The notes beneath the pieces were generated by a model that was not told the DNA's origin, did no database searches, and was given only the letters and a program-made list of their open reading frames with translations. The position numbers were made by a program, and so were the translations under genes. Shown here piece by piece: positions 2,680 to 42,142 of a stretch of DNA of 64,000 bases (position 1 is its first letter; each line of letters starts with the position of its first letter). Origin of the DNA: a virus; the IMG/VR virus record IMGVR_UViG_3300045988_175656. One strand, 5' to 3'.

Positions 2680-2799
2680 ACAGTATTAGCTCAGTTGGTT
2701 AGAGCATCAGCCCATAATAGAAATTTTTCAGTATTTGAAAAAACAGCAATATAATCTTAAACACGCAGAGGGTCATTGGTTCGAGTCCAATATACTGTT
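2680..2799 (+). tRNA. tRNA-shaped gene (probably CAU class) interrupted by the conserved hairpin/AGCAA module
   Basis: Acceptor acagtat/atactgt, D-arm gctc-agttggtta-gagc, T-arm attgg-ttcgagt-ccaat. Anticodon stem tcagc/gcaga encloses 53 nt beginning ccataat. The insert carries tttttca-gtatt-tgaaaaa followed by cagcaatataa (2724-2754). Confidence 0.6.
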
Positions 2800-2815: not shown

Positions 2816-3130
2816 ATGGTAAAAGATAAAGTATCATTTTATGAAATGATGAAAACCTTAGATGAAGGTGGATATGCGTTTTTAGCAAATGGGTGTATTT
2901 TGTTTAAACAAATACCTGCTGAGATTATGCCTGATACAATTCCTTTATTGAAGTCAGTACCAGATTTAGTTAAACAAAGAATGCTATCTTTAATTGAAAA
3001 AGATTCAGCTAAAAGTGCTAAGTATGAAAACCAATATATAAAAATGAATCAACAACTAAGAATGACTTATTATATATTTACAGGAGATGATGTAAATAGT
3101 AATGATTGGACTGTTGTTGCTAAAGATTAA
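2816..3130 (+). CDS. hypothetical protein
   Basis: ORF track only. Confidence 0.6.
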   Translation: MVKDKVSFYEMMKTLDEGGYAFLANGCILFKQIPAEIMPDTIPLLKSVPDLVKQRMLSLIEKDSAKSAKYENQYIKMNQQLRMTYYIFTGDDVNSNDWTVVAKD

Positions 3131-3134
3131 TGTT

Positions 3135-3581
3135 ATGGGAATATCAAGAAAACAAATAAAAAAAGCTATTCACAGATTAAGAGTAGATGGTAAAACACCA
3201 CATGATGTAATAGATTTTATTAATAAAAAACTTTGCACAAATAAGGTGGAATTTGAAGAAATACAAAATTGTAGTGAAAATAAAAAACTTTTACCTACAA
3301 GTACCATTTTATCAGATGTTTCAAATTTAAAAGGTATTATGAATGGTGTTACTTTTAATACAGGAAATGGACTTCTTATTAAAAGAACATACAATACGTT
3401 GTGTAATAATTTTAAAAGAATAACTAAGAAACAGTTTCCATTATCATATGAAGAAACTAATGAAGTGATTCAAGCTGTGAAAGATGGAAACAAACTTCAT
3501 GCTGTGAAATTGATAAAAATAAATTCAGGTCTTGGGTTGAGAGAGTCCAAAAATATTTTAGATGCAATGTTTTTTATATAA
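3135..3581 (+). CDS. protein with ribosomal L7/L12 C-terminal-domain-like tail
   Basis: ORF 3102-3581 trimmed to the ATG after the upstream stop. C-terminal AVKLIKINSGLGLRESKNILD resembles the L7/L12 CTD signature VIKxVRxxTGLGLKEAKDLVE. Confidence 0.55.
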   Translation: MGISRKQIKKAIHRLRVDGKTPHDVIDFINKKLCTNKVEFEEIQNCSENKKLLPTSTILSDVSNLKGIMNGVTFNTGNGLLIKRTYNTLCNNFKRITKKQFPLSYEETNEVIQAVKDGNKLHAVKLIKINSGLGLRESKNILDAMFFI

Positions 3582-3802: not shown

Positions 3803-4400
3803 CAATAATAAAATGAAGGGAAGTACTAATACTAAGCAGTTTAAAAATTTTCAGATTAGATGGGCTGAAAAATTAGGGTATGAAGATAATCCATACCTTA
3901 TAAGGTGGACATTTATATTTTTTGGTTATTCAATGAGAATACATCATTGGATTAAATCAGATGATGATAGATATTTTCATGACCATTCAGCTAATTTGCT
4001 TAGTATTGTATTGAAAGGGCATTATTGGAATGTAAAACCAATTGATACTAATAAAAATCCTTCTGATATGGTTAAAGTAATGGTTGATTCATATGTTAGT
4101 GGCTATATACCTGATAACCCTGATGAAGATTATGTTGAAATTGAAAAAGAAAATACAAAGTATTATTATGTAGAAGGTATTTTCAATTCTTTTTGGAATT
4201 TCATTAATATGAGAAAATCTATTTGGTTTTCAAAAGCTGAAGATAAACATTTTCTACGAATACCTGAAGGCGGTGCTTGGACATTGATGTTTGAAGGCAG
4301 ACCAAAACATAAATGGGGATTTTATGTTAATGGTCATAAATGGAGACCACTAAGATATTTTCATAAGTTTGGAATAAGACAAGATAAAAATTATCAATAA
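3792..4400 (+). CDS. hypothetical protein
   Basis: ORF track; its stop overlaps the coaE start (ATAATG). Confidence 0.6.
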   Translation: MNFNNNKMKGSTNTKQFKNFQIRWAEKLGYEDNPYLIRWTFIFFGYSMRIHHWIKSDDDRYFHDHSANLLSIVLKGHYWNVKPIDTNKNPSDMVKVMVDSYVSGYIPDNPDEDYVEIEKENTKYYYVEGIFNSFWNFINMRKSIWFSKAEDKHFLRIPEGGAWTLMFEGRPKHKWGFYVNGHKWRPLRYFHKFGIRQDKNYQ

Positions 4401-4984
4401 TGATATTAGGTATAACAGGTTATATTGGAAGTGGAAAAAGTTATATTTCCAACCTTTTTAGAAAAAATAACATTCCTGTATATGATACAGATAGTAAAGC
4501 AAAAGAAATTTTGAATACTAATCATCAACTTAAACAGGAATTAATTGATTTACTTGGCAATTCTATTTATAAAGATGGTGAATTAAATAAAAAACAATTA
4601 GCATTTTATTTGTTTAGTGACCAAGGTTATACTGATAAGATAAATGCAACTATTCATCCTTATGTAACAGAAGATTTTAAAAAGTGGAGTAAAAAAGAAC
4701 TTGTAACACATAAGATAGTTGCAGTTGAATCAGCTATACTTATTGATAGTGAGTTAGTTAATTGTGTTGATAAAATTGTTTTTGTTGAAGCACCTGTTGA
4801 ATTATGTATTGAAAGAGCCACAAAAAGGGATAACACAAATAAAATTGATATTATTAATAGAATTAATAAACAACCATCGCATTCTGATATAGTTAGATTT
4901 TCTAATTATGTTATATGTAATGATGGAAAAAAAGACAATGATATTGAAATGCAAGTAAAAAATATAATTGATAACATTTTTTAA
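4400..4984 (+). CDS. coaE: dephospho-CoA kinase
   Basis: N-terminal P-loop ILGITGYIGSGKS with the typical CoaE layout (IPVYDTDSKAKEIL; length 194 aa). Confidence 0.85.
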   Translation: MILGITGYIGSGKSYISNLFRKNNIPVYDTDSKAKEILNTNHQLKQELIDLLGNSIYKDGELNKKQLAFYLFSDQGYTDKINATIHPYVTEDFKKWSKKELVTHKIVAVESAILIDSELVNCVDKIVFVEAPVELCIERATKRDNTNKIDIINRINKQPSHSDIVRFSNYVICNDGKKDNDIEMQVKNIIDNIF

Positions 4985-5010
4985 TATTAAAAATTTGTTA
5001 GTTTAAAAAA

Positions 5011-5030
5011 TAAGTTGTATATTTGCAAAG
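5011..5030 (+). promoter_or_regulatory. Bacteroidota-type promoter driving a small structured RNA
   Basis: taagttgtatatttgcaaag consensus copy. Confidence 0.65.
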
Positions 5031-5032
5031 TC

Positions 5033-5170
5033 AAAAATTAATAATAGTCTTAGAACGATATATAAAATGACATAATTTGTTAGTTAGCGAATCTTTAACG
5101 AAACATAGTTGTAGAGTTTCAAACAAATTATTTGGGTGGAGAATCGGGATTCCTAATATTATTAATTTTA
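5033..5170 (+). ncRNA. structured small RNA candidate (unknown class)
   Basis: No ORF. A 13-bp closing helix (5034-5046 aaaattaataata with 5157-5169 tattattaatttt) encloses a nested 10-bp helix (5072-5081 ataatttgtt with 5122-5131 aacaaattat). It lies between two consensus promoters. Confidence 0.5.
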
Positions 5171-5210
5171 AAACATTTTTTAATAATAAATTTTTGGTTT
5201 ATTAAAAAAT

Positions 5211-5229
5211 AAGTTGTATATTTGCAAAG
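5211..5229 (+). promoter_or_regulatory. Bacteroidota-type promoter
   Basis: aagttgtatatttgcaaag, 10 nt upstream of the tRNA-shaped gene at 5239. Confidence 0.65.
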
Positions 5230-5238
5230 TAAAAAGAA

Positions 5239-5435
5239 CAATGGTTAGCTTAATTTGGTAAAGCGTTTCCCAATGATATAATTTCTTGCGCAATTGGAAT
5301 TATGTCATAACGACATGGAAAAGAATGGGTGTTGAAAAAAGAAGGATTTAGTAGAGTTTATTAGAGGTGCGCACCTCTAATAAAGGAAACTTGATTTGGA
5401 ATGAAGTAAAAAAGGTTCGAGTCCCCCACCATTGA
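5239..5435 (+). tRNA. tRNA-shaped gene with a ~110-nt insertion in the anticodon region and a weak T-stem
   Basis: Perfect acceptor caatggt/accattg, D-arm gctt-aatttggta-aagc and T-loop ggttcgagtcc. The stem tttcc (5266-5270)/ggaaa (5385-5389) encloses 114 nt, including the palindromic hairpin tagaggtgcgcacctcta. The T-stem has only 2 clear pairs. Confidence 0.4.
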
Positions 5436-5462
5436 CGATGTTTAATTATAAAATTATATTTC

Positions 5463-5762
5463 ATGAGAATTAAAGAAAAGAAAGTTGGGCAACACTTTCA
5501 ACATAGAAAAAGGATATTAGATACTGTTGCAGTACAACATGATAAAGTAGTTGGAACTGGATGGCATTGTGGGGTTGAAAATGGAAAATGTATGAATTGC
5601 TATTTTAATAATCATCCACCTTACAAATTTGCTTATTCTTATGAAAGAGAAAAAGTTAAAGACTATAATAGTTGTGCATATAAACATAGATGCACAAAAG
5701 TATATAGAACAGATGGAAATAATGTAATTTTTAAATCCATTAAAAATTTAACAAATAATTAA
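5463..5762 (+). CDS. hypothetical Cys/His-rich protein
   Basis: ORF track; several C and H residues (CGVENGKCMNC, CAYKHRC). Confidence 0.5.
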   Translation: MRIKEKKVGQHFQHRKRILDTVAVQHDKVVGTGWHCGVENGKCMNCYFNNHPPYKFAYSYEREKVKDYNSCAYKHRCTKVYRTDGNNVIFKSIKNLTNN

Positions 5763-5789
5763 CATTAAAAATTTGCAAGTTTCAAAAAT

Positions 5790-5808
5790 AAGTCGTATAT
5801 TTGCAAAG
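5790..5808 (+). promoter_or_regulatory. Bacteroidota-type promoter driving the large ORF-free block
   Basis: aagtcgtatatttgcaaag consensus copy. Confidence 0.65.
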
Positions 5809-5809
5809 T

Positions 5810-6786
5810 AAAAAGAAAACAAAGCGTTCTTTGAGAGAATTAAAACGAAATTTTATTAGTTTTTTATTAAAAATGGAAACATTTGGAAATGATAAACTAT
5901 TTAAAATATACAGTTAGCCCTCATAACTGTAAGGATAACGCAGTAATGTAATAAAGCAAACATGTGACAGTGTTTGCGATGCTTAATAAGCATTCCATAG
6001 AAGGGCAATATTGAGTATCATAACAAATGGAGTAAGGACGGGCAGAAATGAAAGTTTGTTATGACAAGGGGGATAAATCCTCTTTGTTGATACAGAAATG
6101 TAAATAAGAAAGTATTGGATAATGGTGCAATTCTTAACCGAGAAACGTGCTATTATAAATCATGTGGCAATTTAGACTTCGTAGCTCCCCCAAAGAGCGA
6201 TTAACGAGTGGTGTCGAATAGTAGAAATACAAAGTCTTTGTTAGAATCAAAAACTAACAGTCAAGTGGTAGTACAAAACATCTCAATTCGGTTAGATGTG
6301 TACAGATTGGTGTTTAAGTGGATTGTACTCAAAAGGTACAAATGCTTTGGGTCGCACCACATCAATCAGTTTTTAGATTAATAAAGGATTATTAGGAATC
6401 AAATTTATGCAGCAAAAGTGTGCGACACTTGTAGGTTAAAATGACCTTATTCCTCTGCAATATGAGGACAATATGAGTACCGCAAGGAAAATATTGAGAA
6501 AGTAAAAGTAATGATTTATCTAAGAGGGGTCGCCTTCTGAAGCCGAAAGCAGTTAGTCAAGAAATGAAATCTATGATACCTATGAGTAAGTGTTTAGTAG
6601 TTTTTCGCAAAACTATTGGTCATGCTATCTACTTAGCAGTAATGTTAAGTGTGAACATTCAGTTCCAACGCTGAAGTAATGATAGTATTAATGGTCATGT
6701 TCTCAGCCATACTTTTAACTCAAAGTGGGGGTCAATGCAGATGATTTTCTGTTGGAATGGTTCAATTCCATTTAAAAGTACTTTAA
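5810..6786 (+). ncRNA. large structured ncRNA candidate (~970 nt; class unknown, GOLLD/ROOL-like context)
   Basis: No ORF of 60 aa or more in any frame between 5762 and 7033. It sits behind its own consensus promoter, is visibly more G/C-rich than the flanks, and has many local helices (e.g. gcaaaca...tgtttgc at ~5957-5978 and tggaat-ggttca-attcca near 6754-6771). A small stem element and tRNA-Leu follow directly. Confidence 0.5.
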
Positions 6787-6850
6787 AGGAAACGTAGCAA
6801 ATATTTTAACTATCGAATTATTAATTTGAACAAAGTAAAAAATGTTTCCT
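6787..6850 (+). repeat. AGGAAAC...GTTTCCT stem element, copy 1 (small RNA or processing element)
   Basis: The 7-bp terminal stem aggaaac/gtttcct encloses gtagcaaatattttaac...aaaaaat. Copies also at 12574, 18556 and 18966. Confidence 0.6.
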
Positions 6851-6858
6851 GTTAAAAT

Positions 6859-6945
6859 GGCTCTGTGGCGAAATTGGTAGTACGCATCAGACTTAAAATC
6901 TGAGGGGCAGAAATGCCCGTGTGGGTTCGACTCCCATCAGAGCTA
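6859..6945 (+). tRNA. tRNA-Leu(UAA), type II
   Basis: Acceptor ggctctg/cagagct (G1-U72), anticodon stem tcaga/tctga, loop cttaaaa, long variable arm, T-arm gtggg-ttcgact-cccat. Confidence 0.9.
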
Positions 6946-7032
6946 CAAAAAAAAAATAAAAAAGTTTTTTAAAAAATTGAATTTTTCAATTTATAAGTTA
7001 TATTTATATTAAAAAGTAAAAAAATTAACATT

Positions 7033-7215
7033 ATGGCAACACTTAGTCAAACATATAATCAAATATCGAATTCAACATTTAAATGTTGGAACGGGTTTGT
7101 TATGCACAATGAACAAGTGAGACCTAATGGTATTGCGTTTTATGATAATAAACATAACAGAAAAAGCGTTCGATTACGACTGAAGGATGATATAGTACAA
7201 GAAATAGACTATTAG
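7033..7215 (+). CDS. hypothetical protein
   Basis: ORF track only; followed by a terminator. Confidence 0.45.
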   Translation: MATLSQTYNQISNSTFKCWNGFVMHNEQVRPNGIAFYDNKHNRKSVRLRLKDDIVQEIDY

Positions 7216-7329: not shown

Positions 7330-8028
7330 ATGACAGTTAATTTGATTGTTGCAATTAGTGAGAATAATGCAATTGGTAAAAATGGCGATTTGTGTTTTCA
7401 TATTAAAGATGATTTAAGAAGATTCAAAGAACTTACAATAGGCAAACCAGTAATAATGGGATATAATACATATAAATCATTACCAAATGGTGCTTTACCA
7501 AAAAGAAAAAATATTGTTTTATGTGATAATGAAACAACAGTGTTGATTAAAGAAATGGTAACTTTGTTACCTTCATTAGAAGAAGCTATACAATATTGCG
7601 ATGATAACTGTTATGATGATATTTTTATAATTGGTGGTGGAATGCTCTACAAATATGCAATTGAACATGATTTAGTGGATATTTTGTATATTACAAAAAT
7701 ACATGAAATTGTTGAAGATGCAGATACATTTTTTCCAAATATTGATTATAATAAATGGGTAGAAAAAACAAAAGAAGATAAAGAAACTGAAGATGGTATC
7801 AAATATAGTTTTGTTAAATATAAAAGAAATAAAGCAAAATTTATTTTAAATCCTGATTCAATTCATGTTGACAAAATACATAAGGCTATTGAAAAGAAGA
7901 AAGAAAAATTTGGAGAAAGATATTGCCCATGTGTAACAAAATTAGCCCACTGTGAGGACACAATTTGTCCTTGCAAAGAATATAGGACTAATGGGGGAAA
8001 ATGTCACTGTGAGCTTTATATTGAGTGA
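7330..8028 (+). CDS. folA: dihydrofolate reductase fused to a ferredoxin-thioredoxin-reductase catalytic-chain-like Cys domain
   Basis: The N-terminal ~160 aa is DHFR-like (LIVAISENNAIGKNGDL, RFKELT, GYNTYKSLP, IIGGGMLY). The C-terminus has the CPC-x11-CPC-x9-CHC pattern (RYCPCVTKLAHCEDTICPCKEYRTNGGKCHCELY). Confidence 0.85.
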   Translation: MTVNLIVAISENNAIGKNGDLCFHIKDDLRRFKELTIGKPVIMGYNTYKSLPNGALPKRKNIVLCDNETTVLIKEMVTLLPSLEEAIQYCDDNCYDDIFIIGGGMLYKYAIEHDLVDILYITKIHEIVEDADTFFPNIDYNKWVEKTKEDKETEDGIKYSFVKYKRNKAKFILNPDSIHVDKIHKAIEKKKEKFGERYCPCVTKLAHCEDTICPCKEYRTNGGKCHCELYIE

Positions 8029-15470: not shown

Positions 15471-15542
15471 TGCGAGGTGTAGCAGTGGTAGCTAGTCAGG
15501 CTCATAACCTGAAGGTCAATGGTTCGAATCCATTCTTCGCAA
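15471..15542 (+). tRNA. tRNA(CAU) (Met/fMet/Ile2 class)
   Basis: Acceptor tgcgagg/cttcgca, D tagc/gcta, anticodon stem tcagg/cctga, loop ctcataa, T-arm aatgg-ttcgaat-ccatt. Confidence 0.9.
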
Positions 15543-16909: not shown

Positions 16910-17022
16910 GGGGAAGTAGCTCAATTGGTAGAGCAAATGTTAAAAAAATGTTTTTAGTATTAAAAATGTAGCAATTAAATGAGGAAATCATTGTGTCATT
17001 GGTTCGATTCCAATCTTCCCCG
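16910..17022 (+). tRNA. tRNA-shaped gene carrying a covarying copy of the hairpin/TAGCAA module
   Basis: Acceptor ggggaag/cttcccc, D gctc-aattggta-gagc, T-arm attgg-ttcgatt-ccaat. The stem aatg/catt encloses ~49 nt with ttttta-gtat-taaaaa + tgtagcaattaaat (16951-16980). Confidence 0.55.
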
Positions 17023-40219: not shown

Positions 40220-42142
40220 ATGAAAAGAATTTTAGGTATTGATTTAGGCTCTACAAACTCAGCAGTGAGTGTGATTGAGAGTGGAAAAGCAATAATTGTA
40301 GTTAATGAGGAAGGTAGAAGAACTACCCCATCTGTGATTGCATTAAAGAATGGGGAAAGAAAAGTTGGAGAAGCTGCAAAAAGACAACGTGTTGTTAATC
40401 CTAAAGAAACTGTATCAATAATTAAAAGATTTATGGGGGCTGATTTTAATTCTTCTGAATGTCAAGAAGCTATTAAAAAAGTACCTTATGAAATTATTAA
40501 TAAGGATGGTAAAGCAAGAGTTCTAATTGAAAACAGAGAATATTCTCCTGAAGAATTATCTTCTTATATCATTTCTAAACTTAAAAAATGTGCCGAAGAT
40601 TATGTAGGTGGGGAAATTAAAGATGCTGTTATTACAGTTCCAGCATATTTTAATGATTCACAACGTACAGCAACTAAAGTCGCAGGTGAACTAGCTGGTT
40701 TGAATGTGTTAAGAATTATTAATGAACCAACAGCAGCTATTCTTTCTTCTGATATTGATATTAAACATGGTGAGAAAAATATTATGGTGTGTGACTTTGG
40801 TGGTGCAACAACTGATTTTTCTGTATGTAATTTGTCAGAAGGATTAACAGAAGTATTATCAACTTATGGTGATGTATTCCTAGGTGGTAGTGATATTGAT
40901 AATGCTATTGCAGAATGGATTATAAGCTCATTTAATGAAGAAAATGGTGTGGATTTAAAGAGTGATGCCCAAGCATTACAACGTGTCGTAGAAGCGGCTG
41001 AAACTGCTAAAATAGAGCTATCATCTTCTAGTTCTGCTGAAATTAATTTGCCTTATATTTGTAGTAAAGATAATACACCATTACATTTACAATATACATT
41101 AACAAGAGCTAAGTTTAATCAATTAACACAACCATTGATTGATAAACTGATTAAATGTGGTAAAGAGTCTTTGAAAAAAGCAAATCTTAAAGCAAATGAA
41201 CTTAATGGTATTTTGCTTGTTGGTGGGTCTTGTCGTTGTTTGAATGTACAAGATGCTTTAACCAAAGAATTTGGTGTAGAACTATTGAAATCAGCTAATT
41301 TGGATGAAGCTGTTTCATTAGGTGCAGCTATTCAAGCTAATATTATAGTTGGTGGAGAAGGAAGTTCTGATATGGTATTACTTGATGTAACTCCACTTTC
41401 AATGGGTATTGAAACAATGGGTAATGTGATGACAAAACTTATTGATGCAAATACAACAATTCCATGCAAAAAAAGCCAAATTTTCACAACTGCTGTGGAT
41501 AATCAGCCATCTGTTGATATTCATGTATTACAAGGTGAAAGACCAATGGCTAAAGATAATAAAACAATTGGTATGTTCCAATTAACTGATATTTTACCAG
41601 CAAGACGTGGTGTGCCACAAATTGAAGTAACATTTGATATTGATGCTAATGGTATTTTGAATGTTTCTGCAAAAGATAAAGGTACAGGAAAAGAACAGTC
41701 AATTAGAATTGAAGCAAGTAATGGTCTTTCTGATGCTGAAATTGAAAAAATCAAGCAAGAAGCAAAAGAACATGAAGCAGCAGATAAGAAATTGAAAGAA
41801 GAAGCTGATATAATTAATAATGGAGATGCTATGGTTTTTCAAACTGAAAAACAGATTGAAGAATATGGTGATAAAATTTCTTCAGATAGTAAGAAATCTT
41901 TAGAAGAACTAATTGAAAAGTTAAAAAATTCTTTAAAAGATAGAAATATATCTGATATTAAAGAAAACACTGATAAAATCACATCACAATGGCAAAAAAT
42001 TACTTCTGAAATGTATGCAACAGGTACTAATGGTGGTACATCTAATTTTGAAGATATTTTAAGAGGTGCAGCAAATGGTAATACAAAAACAGATACCAAA
42101 GAAGATAATGTAACTGATGCTGATTTTGAAGAAGTTAAATAA
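40220..42142 (+). CDS. dnaK: Hsp70 chaperone DnaK
   Basis: [19 protein letters not shown] and [14 protein letters not shown] signatures; 640 aa. Confidence 0.95.

What the first reader, a model, noticed from the sequence alone, without database searches (positions are those of the whole stretch)
5810..6786. An ORF-free, promoter-driven block of ~970 nt next to tRNAs is a candidate giant structured RNA (GOLLD/ROOL-like context)
Between 5762 and 7033 there is no ORF of 60 aa or more in any frame, in a genome that is otherwise densely coding. A full consensus promoter (5790-5808) fires into the block. The block is visibly richer in G and C than its surroundings and is full of local helices: gcaaaca/tgtttgc near 5957-5978, gctta-a-taagc near 5981-5991, and a T-arm-like tggaat-ggttca-attcca near 6754-6771. 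It is followed by a stem element and tRNA-Leu.

It is established that the very large ornate bacterial RNAs GOLLD and ROOL are typically carried by phages or prophages and sit beside tRNA genes. I did not recognise RNase P, tmRNA or group II domain V signatures. This could be a member of one of those classes in a Bacteroidota phage, or a new large RNA.
Basis: partly seen in the sequence, partly recalled or inferred. Interest (0 to 1): 0.78.

Follow-up and report, generated by a model that had tools for sequence, protein, structure and literature searches.

The report
Divergent GOLLD RNA in a megaphage
The gene-free block is a roughly 800-base structured RNA gene of the known GOLLD class (a phage RNA that builds hollow RNA-only cages), here in a diverged form carried by giant gut phages related to the Lak phages of Prevotella and ending in a tRNA look-alike.

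Summary
Window 5763-7032 has no credible ORF under the standard code or with any single stop codon recoded. It is richer in G+C than its flanks, sits behind a repeated phage promoter, and folds better than shuffled sequence.

The interpretation also holds. Positions 6305-6709 match the whole Rfam GOLLD model (93.2 bits, E=1.8e-24), although below Rfam's curated cut-off of 150 bits. In 17 related sequences, 63 of 96 predicted pairs of this 3' domain show changes on both sides.

A 5' domain of about 400 nt (5910-6304) is conserved with the 3' domain. Its first module covaries in 26 distinct sequences and begins like the solved GOLLD env-38 RNA (hairpin, then GGAUAA).

Relatives occur in Lak-A/B/C Prevotella megaphages and in 220-550 kb viral contigs, mostly in tRNA arrays; one carries a tRNA inside the GOLLD linker. 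I found no report of GOLLD in Lak phages.

A degenerate tRNA-like cloverleaf (6711-6781) starts two bases after the last GOLLD pair. This suggests that RNase P makes the 3' end.

Verdict: a new, divergent member of a known class. Cage assembly and function are inferred, not shown.

The parts
5772..5809 (+). Bacteroidota-type promoter: -33 TTTG (5772-5775), -7 TATATTTG (5797-5804), inside the repeated box GTATATTTGCAAAGT (5795-5809). The inferred transcription start is about 5811-5814.
   Evidence: The box occurs 13 times, all on the + strand, against 0.74 expected. Upstream TTTG sits at fixed spacing, and other copies lie 10-40 nt before tRNAs and ORFs. The start site is inferred by analogy with the copy 10 nt before tRNA-Met at 15471.
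5811..5909 (+). A+T-rich leader between the promoter and the first conserved helix. It is not conserved outside the closest relatives.
   Evidence: Alignments A1 and A3. In L090 a promoter box lies only about 20 nt before the P1 hairpin.
5910..5994 (+). 5' domain, module A: P1 hairpin 5910-5930, AGGAUAA 5932-5938, 3-bp GNRA hairpin 5940-5949, AUAAAG, hairpin Pb 5956-5977, hairpin Pc 5978-5994.
   Evidence: Covariance model R1 finds this module upstream of the 3' domain in 41 loci, 26 of them distinct: 93.2% of cells paired against 30-49% when partners are slid, and 22 of 23 pairs changed on both sides. It lies about 300-390 nt upstream where this was measured. The published env-38 GOLLD sequence starts the same way: hairpin UAC-GAAA-GUA, then GGAUAA.
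5995..6304 (+). 5' domain, variable remainder: Pd 6019-6063, Pe 6065-6086, GNRA hairpin G2 6091-6102, P7 6119-6156 (inner 6131-6144), P8 6184-6198, GNRA hairpin G3 6221-6230, P9 6240-6258, P10 6271-6303.
   Evidence: On unrefined MAFFT alignments, 74% (9 sequences) and 65.5% (14 lineages) of cells are paired, against 35-48% when slid. G2, P7 and G3 are best supported (77-80% paired). Pd, Pe, P8, P9 and P10 hold mainly in near relatives (L121, L090, L125). The minimum-free-energy fold recovers P1, G1, Pb, Pd, Pe and G2.
6305..6367 (+). 3' domain, first hairpin (P14-like), with the invariant loop CAAAAG (6330-6335).
   Evidence: Rfam GOLLD model positions 1-65. All 22 pairs hold at 95-100% of cells, 14 with changes on both sides. 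The loop is invariant in 17 sequences. In env-38 the loop adenosines make the chain-to-chain contact B6.
6368..6411 (+). A+U-rich variable linker (44 nt).
   Evidence: It varies greatly in length among relatives, from 44 nt here to about 90 nt in Lak-A2 and longer still in L110. In L125 it contains tRNA-Thr. It corresponds to the disordered 42-nt linker of env-38, which sometimes holds tRNAs (PMC12286853).
6412..6709 (+). 3' domain core: GCAAAAGU 6412-6419; long-range helix 6427-6436/6578-6587; hairpins 6451-6468 and 6469-6496 (invariant GAGUACCGCAAGGAAA 6475-6490); helix 6499-6515/6556-6574 enclosing hairpins 6523-6538 (loop GUCG) and 6542-6550 (loop CGAAA), separated by GAA 6539-6541; hairpin 6596-6617; three-way junction 6624-6686 (hairpins 6630-6651 and 6658-6675); terminal hairpin 6692-6709 with loop ...GUUCUCA.
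   Evidence: Rfam GOLLD model positions 120-416. In 17 sequences, 90.8% of cells are paired against 37-44% when slid, 63 of 96 pairs change on both sides against 18-25, and the covariation score is 0.583 against at most 0.089. The inner part of 6469-6496 and the outer part of 6499-6574 are not Watson-Crick supported; they are probably non-canonical motifs.
6711..6781 (+). Degenerate tRNA-like cloverleaf: 7-bp acceptor stem, 3-bp D stem, 5-bp anticodon stem with an aberrant 6-nt loop, canonical T arm AAUGG-UUCAAUU-CCAUU. No CCA is encoded.
   Evidence: ARAGORN finds it only at an 80% threshold. It is not called at default settings or by Rfam. RNAfold alone gives a cloverleaf in four lineages. 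L121 keeps the acceptor and anticodon stems through compensatory changes.
6788..6849 (+). Spacer closed by the stem GGAAAC (6788-6793) / GUUUCC (6844-6849), before tRNA-Leu.
   Evidence: Both arms are conserved in L121 although the sequence between them has diverged and carries a 44-nt insertion just upstream. Its role is unknown.
6859..6946 (+). tRNA-Leu(UAA), the first gene of an array of at least 31 tRNAs, all on the + strand.
   Evidence: ARAGORN and Rfam.

Best explanation
This is a gene for a GOLLD-class large non-coding RNA, carried by a giant phage of the Lak/Bacteroidota-megaphage kind.

Shown here:
- A structured core of about 800 nt (5910-6709) has two domains. The 3' domain (6305-6709) is homologous to the universally conserved GOLLD 3' domain. 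A 5' domain of about 400 nt is more variable.
- Both domains are kept by compensatory substitutions across many phage lineages.
- The element is embedded at the head of a tRNA array.

Inferred:
- It is transcribed from the Bacteroidota-type promoter at 5772-5804, probably together with the downstream tRNA-like element and tRNA-Leu.
- The 3' end is released when RNase P cuts at the 5' side of the cloverleaf that begins at 6711. In sister lineages, a real tRNA that starts 5-35 nt after the GOLLD end would do the same job.
- Like the solved env-38 GOLLD, the RNA assembles into a homo-oligomeric RNA-only cage whose variable linker faces the interior.
- It acts during lytic growth in connection with the phage's own tRNA/translation apparatus. 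The biological function of GOLLD is unknown for the whole class.
For: - Family match: the Rfam GOLLD model matches over its full length, 93.2 bits, E=1.8e-24. Relatives score 61.8, 97.4 and 86.1 bits, E from 3e-15 to 2.8e-25.
- 3' domain: covariation on 9 and 17 sequences.
- 5' domain: module A covaries in 26 distinct sequences. The rest of the 5' domain pairs above controls.
- Homology runs along the whole element with Lak-B1: window 5720-6710 aligns with L001 1899-2942.
- Signature motifs are present: L14 CAAAAG, GCAAAAGU, the GAA between two small hairpins, and the terminal UCUCAGCC. They compare with env-38 residues A447/A448, G664-A666, G656:C657 and G675:C676.
- A relative has a tRNA inside the linker (L125).
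- tRNAs, or the tRNA-like element, abut the 3' end in most lineages.
- No ORF under any code tested.
- The promoter box is over-represented.
- Fold z-score -3.2.
- GOLLD properties are taken from PMC12286853.
Against: - The score is below Rfam's curated gathering cut-off (93 against 150 bits), as it is for every relative tested.
- Two model helices are not supported as Watson-Crick pairs here (the inner helix of hairpin 6469-6496 and the outer part of helix 6499-6574): 54% and 58% of cells paired.
- The middle of the 5' domain is poorly conserved in distant lineages. It could not be aligned to env-38 by sequence; local alignment is no better than shuffles, although the same is true of the 3' domains.
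- The env-38 contact B1 uses a GAAA loop on the first hairpin. That hairpin here has a 7-nt non-GNRA loop.
- The Lak-A/B/C L21a loop (GGGA) lacks the self-complementary GC/CG.
- There are no expression, end-mapping or assembly data. Promoter use, RNase P processing and cage formation are inferences.
Confidence: 0.87

Rival explanations
1. It is a new class of large structured RNA that only superficially resembles GOLLD. The 3' half would share a few motifs by convergence, and the whole would have a different architecture and function.
For: The score is under the Rfam cut-off in all members. The 5' domain cannot be aligned to env-38 by sequence. The first-hairpin loop differs from that of env-38.
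Against: The match covers all 416 model positions at E=1.8e-24. Every multi-helix junction of the model is present and covaries. The motifs fall in the same order and spacing. The linker sits at the same place and is nearly the same length (44 nt against 42 nt). A relative has a tRNA in the linker, as described for GOLLD. The 5' domain has the same size and starts with the same hairpin-GGAUAA motif.
Confidence: 0.05
2. It is mainly a long structured leader and processing scaffold for the tRNA operon. Its job would be to control transcription, processing or stability of tRNA-Leu and the downstream tRNAs, not to act as a free RNA particle.
For: It shares a strand with the tRNA array and probably a transcript. 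tRNAs or tRNA-like elements abut its 3' end in most lineages. A conserved stem lies between it and tRNA-Leu.
Against: Lak-A/B/C carry the homologous RNA with no tRNA within 2.5 kb. There it is followed by its own hairpins and a terminator-like stem plus U-tract, so the RNA is kept without any tRNA to serve. The solved family member is an autonomous 14-mer particle (PMC12286853).
Confidence: 0.05
3. It is decayed or non-functional DNA (a remnant of tRNA genes, introns or a dead gene), or a protein gene read in an unusual code.
For: Lak-type phages recode TAG. A degenerate tRNA lies at its end, and tRNA genes with inserts occur nearby.
Against: No frame stays open under TAG, TGA or TAA recoding. 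Substitutions are concentrated as compensatory pairs in helices, while loops such as CAAAAG and UCUCAG are invariant across lineages that are only about 60-70% identical.
Confidence: 0.02

Closest known systems
GOLLD RNA (Rfam RF02032; the solved example is env-38, an 833-nt marine metagenome RNA that forms a D7 14-mer nanocage, PMC12286853)
   Same: - Full-length significant match of the 3' domain.
- The same helices, junctions and signature loops.
- A variable linker after the first 3' hairpin, which holds a tRNA in one relative.
- A 5' domain of about 400 nt that starts with a hairpin plus GGAUAA.
- Total size of about 800 nt.
- Phage-borne, beside a tRNA array.
   Different: - It scores 93 bits where Rfam requires 150.
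- Its hosts are giant phages of gut Bacteroidota (Lak-like). These are not in the stored part of the published GOLLD alignment, which is cut in storage.
- The first hairpin lacks the GAAA loop used for contact B1.
- The L21a loop is GUCG rather than CGCAA.
- A degenerate tRNA-like cloverleaf is fused to the 3' end.
GOLLD RNAs in Mycobacterium tRNA arrays (Morgado et al. 2020, cited in PMC12286853 as ref. 29; also PMC6582537)
   Same: A GOLLD gene embedded in a long array of tRNA genes on a mobile or viral element.
   Different: A different phylum and replicon. I did not compare sequences with those members.
ROOL RNA (Rfam; about 580 nt, an 8-mer nanocage)
   Same: A large ornate phage RNA near tRNA islands that forms a cage with an internal disordered linker.
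   Different: No ROOL model match here. [quoted passage not shown]
tRNA-like 3'-end processing signals (for example the mascRNA element at the 3' end of the mammalian lncRNA MALAT1, cut by RNase P; recalled from my own knowledge)
   Same: A cloverleaf that is not a decoding tRNA sits immediately after the end of a long non-coding RNA, where RNase P cleavage would create that end.
   Different: This is an analogy only. No cleavage has been shown here. In sister phage lineages ordinary tRNAs occupy the position.

Membership tests
GOLLD RNA (RF02032) | Statistically significant match to the family covariance model over its full length | tested here: met
   Window 6305-6709, model positions 1-416 of 416, 93.2 bits, E=1.8e-24. 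Relatives: Lak-B1 61.8 bits, L112 97.4 bits, L122 86.1 bits.
GOLLD RNA (RF02032) | Score at or above Rfam's curated gathering cut-off (150 bits) | tested here: not met
   93.2 bits, so it is absent from the gathering-threshold scan. None of 13 related loci reaches the cut-off either. This is an operational curators' threshold, not a structural feature. I therefore call the RNA a divergent homologue, not a member by Rfam's cut-off.
GOLLD RNA (RF02032) | Conserved 3'-domain secondary structure (first hairpin, long-range helix enclosing a multi-hairpin junction, three-way junction, terminal hairpin), kept by covariation | tested here: met
   In 17 sequences, 90.8% of cells are paired against 37-44% when slid, and 63 of 96 pairs change on both sides. 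Two sub-helices are not Watson-Crick supported.
GOLLD RNA (RF02032) | Signature conserved nucleotides: L14 UCAAAAG, AGCAAAAGU, CGCAA-type loops, terminal UCUCAGCC | tested here: met
   All are present in the model alignment. All are invariant or nearly so in 17 relatives.
GOLLD RNA (RF02032) | Variable, unstructured linker after the first 3'-domain hairpin, sometimes containing tRNAs | tested here: met
   44 nt here (6368-6411), about 90 nt in Lak-A2 and longer still in L110. tRNA-Thr lies inside the linker of L125.
GOLLD RNA (RF02032) | Less conserved 5' domain of about 400 nt, joined to the 3' domain, for a total above about 800 nt | tested here: met
   5910-6304 is 395 nt and the core is 800 nt. 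Module A covaries and the remainder is partly supported. The start motif is shared with env-38. Homology of the whole 5' fold to env-38 could not be tested.
GOLLD RNA (RF02032) | Encoded by phages or prophages, often next to tRNA islands | tested here: met
   At least 31 tRNAs follow. Near-identical contigs of 220-398 kb occur in IMG/VR and metagenomes. Lak megaphage homologues exist.
GOLLD RNA (RF02032) | Self-assembly into a homo-oligomeric RNA-only nanocage | not testable with these tools
   Only indirect evidence. The L14 A-run (contact B6), the GAA turn, CG-containing L21a/L21b loops (B8/B9 use GC) and the L27 loop are retained. The B1 GAAA loop is not.
ROOL RNA | Match to the ROOL covariance model | tested here: not met
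   No hit at E up to 10 in 4900-7100, nor at the gathering threshold in the window.
tRNA (for element 6711-6781) | Cloverleaf with a 7-nt anticodon loop, detectable by the standard tRNA models | tested here: not met
   Not found by ARAGORN at default settings or by Rfam tRNA. Found only at an 80% threshold, with a 6-nt loop. The cloverleaf stems are kept. It is tRNA-like, not a decoding tRNA.

The most novel reading that the evidence does not exclude
Bacteroidota megaphages may carry a distinct GOLLD subclass. Its 3' end would be matured through a dedicated, non-decoding tRNA mimic: a tRNA that has degenerated into a pure RNase P handle, or that stays tethered to the particle. Its 5' cap domain lacks the env-38 B1 contact, so it might assemble with a different stoichiometry or cargo. 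If the tRNA-like piece or neighbouring tRNAs are the cargo, this locus would link GOLLD cages directly to phage tRNA handling.
Probability: 0.2. Interest if true: 0.65.

Novelty: new member of a known kind. Interest (0 to 1): 0.42.

Why it matters
GOLLD is one of the largest and most elaborate bacterial or phage RNAs. It was recently shown to build a 14-subunit RNA-only cage, yet its function is unknown.

This finding has three consequences.

- It extends the class to the Lak-like megaphages of gut Bacteroidota. The family is clearly under-counted by the curated Rfam cut-off: all 17 or more lineages found here score 60-100 bits.
- It supplies a diverse set of new sequences for covariation and structure work. 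These include a short-linker form, a form with a tRNA in the linker, and forms with no tRNA nearby (Lak-A/B/C).
- The regular placement of a tRNA, or here a degenerate tRNA mimic, directly after the 3' end gives a concrete, testable model for how GOLLD ends are made, and one more tie between GOLLD and phage tRNA biology.

It does not change what kind of thing GOLLD is.

Tried and rejected
- The Rfam gathering-threshold scan of the window found tRNAs only. The hit appears only in E-value mode on a short stretch. A 16-kb E-value scan of three Lak loci found nothing, yet a 1.6-kb scan found GOLLD at 61.8 bits. The speed filters, not absence, explain the miss.
- ORFs under TAG, TGA or TAA recoding: none spans the block.
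- Direct sequence alignment of either domain to env-38 is no better than shuffles. The env-38 sequence copied from the PDF is also 816 nt instead of about 835, so residue numbers could not be transferred exactly.
- RNAalifold on a raw MAFFT alignment of the 5' domain gave a poor consensus (37 pairs, -12.9 kcal/mol) because the lineages are out of register. I replaced it with hand-defined helices plus one covariance model.
- A proposed helix 6015-6019/6089-6093 enclosing Pd and Pe was dropped, because it conflicts with the conserved GNRA hairpin 6091-6102.
- tblastx of the flanks against Lak loci showed no conserved neighbouring genes. The genomic context differs between the window clade and Lak-A/B/C.
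- The genome-contig scan found only one 2-kb MAG contig, labelled Clostridium sp. and 80.6% identical to Lak-A2 over the element. It gives no host information.
- Weinberg et al. 2009 could not be read.

Full report
**Observation**

- Between the stop of a 99-aa ORF at 5762 and the ATG at 7033, the longest ORF is 57 aa.
- Lak-type megaphages recode TAG, so I recomputed stop-to-stop frames with TAG, TGA or TAA read through. The longest are 111, 120 and 139 codons, and none spans the block.
- G+C is 0.335-0.375 over 5900-6800, against 0.185-0.33 on either side.
- The core (5903-6710) folds to -196.8 kcal/mol, against -174.7 +/- 6.9 for dinucleotide shuffles (z = -3.2).

- It occurs 13 times in the window, always on the + strand, against 0.74 expected.
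- It has TTTG about 21 nt upstream in most copies, and it precedes tRNAs and ORFs.
- This is the Bacteroidota TTTG/TAnnTTTG promoter type (my knowledge of that consensus), not a sigma-70 consensus. The generic sigma-70 scan was not enriched: 18 sites against 14.8 expected.

**What it is**

A gathering-threshold Rfam scan of the window reports only tRNAs. An E-value scan of 4900-7100 gives a match of 6305-6709 (+) to GOLLD (RF02032).
- The match covers model positions 1-416 of 416, at 93.2 bits and E=1.8e-24. This is below the curated cut-off of 150 bits.
- No other family matches the block meaningfully.
- The Rfam model corresponds to the universally conserved 3' region of GOLLD. The solved env-38 RNA has a 5' domain (1-420) and a 3' domain (421-833), with a disordered linker at 497-538 (PMC12286853).
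- In the window the same layout is seen: a first hairpin with loop CAAAAG (6305-6367), a 44-nt A+U-rich linker (6368-6411), GCAAAAGU (6412-6419), a long-range helix enclosing several hairpins, a further hairpin, a three-way junction, and a terminal hairpin with the loop ...UCUCA closed by GCC (6692-6709).

**Relatives**

- In the GenBank phage set, the block itself matches only the 15 Lak-A/B/C Prevotella megaphage genomes, at about 69% identity over the 3' domain. The other 12 records match only the flanking tRNA-Leu gene.
- With sensitive settings, homology to Lak-B1 runs along the whole element: 5720-6710 against L001 1899-2942, 61.6% identity.
- Lak-B1 itself matches the GOLLD model at 61.8 bits, E=3e-15.
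- Pattern scans of IMG/VR, metagenomes and genomes, followed by nhmmer, gave three groups:
  - near-identical copies on contigs of 220-398 kb (L005, L008, L109, L123; 98-99.8% identity);
  - a 92% lineage (L121);
  - about a dozen lineages at roughly 68-81% identity to their nearest relative (L090/L113, L125, L118, L006, L114, L115/L122, L112, L110, L108, L104), plus more distant hits. The fetched loci of these groups are mostly rich in tRNAs.
- L112 and L122 score 97.4 and 86.1 bits against GOLLD.
- The window's Hsp70 is closest to a 642-kb uncultured phage and to Lak-B. So the source is a Lak-like or Bacteroidota megaphage.

**Structure tests**

3' domain. I transferred the GOLLD helices from the model alignment to window coordinates. 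I corrected two hairpin registers by hand and counted pairs.
- On 9 sequences, 91.8% of cells pair against 38-46% when partners are slid, and 44 of 96 pairs change on both sides against 3-7.
- On 17 sequences, 90.8% pair against 37-44%, 63 of 96 pairs change on both sides against 18-25, and the covariation score is 0.583 against at most 0.089.
- Two sub-helices are not Watson-Crick supported: the inner part of the hairpin holding the invariant GAGUACCGCAAGGAAA, and the outer part of 6499-6574. They are probably non-canonical motifs. env-38 has a loop-E/bulged-G motif in the corresponding region.

5' domain, first module (5910-5994). A covariance model of this module covers the P1 hairpin, AGGAUAA, a 3-bp GNRA hairpin, AUAAAG and two further hairpins.
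- It found the module upstream of the 3' domain in 41 loci, about 300-390 nt upstream where I measured it.
- In 26 distinct sequences, 93.2% of cells pair against 30-49% when slid, and 22 of 23 pairs change on both sides.
- That alignment is fitted to the model, which favours the structure.

5' domain, remainder (5995-6304).
- It is much more variable.
- On unrefined alignments, 74% and 65.5% of cells pair against 35-48% when slid.
- Two GNRA mini-hairpins and P7 are well supported. The other helices hold mainly in the nearer lineages.

Comparison with env-38.
- The published env-38 sequence also begins with a small hairpin followed by GGAUAA, about 380 nt before its 3' domain.
- Sequence alignment cannot establish fold homology. 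It fails even for the 3' domains.

**The ends**

5' end.
- The promoter box places the start near 5811.
- About 100 A+T-rich, unconserved bases precede P1. In L090 a box lies only about 20 nt before P1.

3' end.
- Two bases after the last GOLLD pair begins a 71-nt cloverleaf (6711-6781).
- ARAGORN finds it only at a relaxed threshold, with a 6-nt anticodon loop.
- RNAfold alone draws a cloverleaf in four lineages. L121 keeps the acceptor and anticodon stems through compensatory changes, while the anticodon loop is not conserved.
- In other lineages an ordinary tRNA starts 5-35 nt after the GOLLD end: L125, L115, L108, L112 and L110, and the intron-type tRNAs of L090 and L006.
- L125 also has tRNA-Thr inside the linker, a trait described for GOLLD.
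- Lak-A/B/C instead have extra hairpins and a terminator-like stem plus U-tract, with no tRNA within 2.5 kb.
- I infer that RNase P cleavage at the abutting tRNA or tRNA mimic makes the 3' end where one is present. In the window clade, a former tRNA would have decayed into a processing handle. This is not shown.

**How it probably works**

By homology, the RNA should fold into the two-domain GOLLD protomer and assemble into an RNA-only cage.

Elements used for chain-to-chain contacts in the env-38 3' ring that are retained:
- the invariant L14 adenosines (contact B6);
- the GAA turn between the two small hairpins (G664-A666);
- self-complementary CG in both small loops (B8 and B9 use GC, and L21a is reported to switch between GC and CG);
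- the terminal loop that ties the 3' domain together.

Elements not retained:
- the GAAA loop of the first hairpin used for B1;
- GC/CG in the L21a loop of Lak-A/B/C.

Assembly, stoichiometry and function remain untested. GOLLD function is unknown for the whole class.

**Known or new**

- GOLLD in phages beside tRNA arrays is established.
- I found no paper that mentions GOLLD together with the term megaphage, and none of the 30 GOLLD papers listed concerns Lak phages.
- The stored part of the published 806-sequence GOLLD alignment contains no MK2500xx, Prevotella or Lak entries, though it does contain some short Bacteroides hits. That file is truncated in storage, so this is not proof.
- I therefore rate the find as a new, divergent member, in fact a whole sub-threshold clade, of a known class.
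- The added observations are the fused tRNA mimic and the regular tRNA abutment at the 3' end.

Noticed in passing
window 6711-6781: A degenerate tRNA-like cloverleaf starts two bases after the last GOLLD pair. Standard tRNA finders miss it. The stems are kept by compensatory changes in L121, but the anticodon loop is 6-7 nt long and not conserved.
   Followed up: yes
window 6788-6849: The stem GGAAAC/GUUUCC closes the spacer before tRNA-Leu. Both arms are conserved in L121 although the interior has diverged. The interior also holds a degenerate copy of the promoter-box tail (TTTGAACAAAGTAAAAAA).
   Followed up: partly
window 2680-2799 and 16910-17022; also L090 and L006 just after their GOLLD ends: These tRNA genes carry 25-51 nt insertions in the anticodon-loop region. 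Rfam matches them as 113-124 nt tRNAs, and ARAGORN calls them introns. The inserts are far too short for group I introns, so their nature is unclear.
   Followed up: partly
window 5216-5436: A further copy of the promoter box (5216-5230) is followed by an odd tRNA-like sequence at 5239-5436: acceptor CAATGGT/ACCATTG, a good D arm, a weak T arm and a 109-nt insert. ARAGORN calls it only at a relaxed threshold, and Rfam does not call it.
   Followed up: partly
window 5017-5215: Another promoter box (5017-5031) is followed by about 180 nt with no ORF of 60 aa or more and no Rfam match. It could be a small RNA. I did not examine it.
   Followed up: no
window, 13 sites (1330, 5017, 5216, 5795, 11111, 12169, 15452, 17074, 20424, 30212, 44025, 48123, 59484): A highly uniform promoter, TTTG-N(~21)-GTATATTTGCAAAGT, all copies on the + strand, lies before both tRNAs and protein genes. 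It is a Bacteroidota-type consensus and supports a Bacteroidota host.
   Followed up: partly
L125 2004-2077; L110 linker (about 200-290): tRNA-Thr lies inside the GOLLD 3'-domain linker of L125. The long linker of L110 contains T-arm-like sequence but no tRNA was called.
   Followed up: partly
L001-L003 (Lak-B1, Lak-A2, Lak-C1), about 2945-3230: In Lak-A/B/C the GOLLD homologue has no tRNA within 2.5 kb. It is followed by about 100 nt of extra conserved hairpins and then a long stem plus U-tract that looks like a terminator.
   Followed up: partly
L110 1916-1988; whole window: A relative carries a tRNA with anticodon CUA (an amber suppressor). In the window, recoding TAG lengthens the summed long open frames only slightly (17,769 to 19,601 codons), and the window has no suppressor tRNA.
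   Followed up: no
L035 942-1349, L006 3713-4021, L115 4022-4422: tmRNA genes sit within a few kb of the GOLLD-like RNAs in several related phage loci.
   Followed up: no
window 7330-8028, 40220-42142, 50618-52177, 4400-4984: The neighbouring genes include a dihydrofolate reductase fused to a domain resembling the ferredoxin-thioredoxin-reductase beta chain, a full-length Hsp70/DnaK, an RNA ligase and a dephospho-CoA kinase.
   Followed up: no
Method note: Rfam E-value scans lose 60-bit GOLLD matches once about 16 kb are searched at a time. Routine genome-scale scans will therefore miss this clade even without the 150-bit cut-off.
   Followed up: yes
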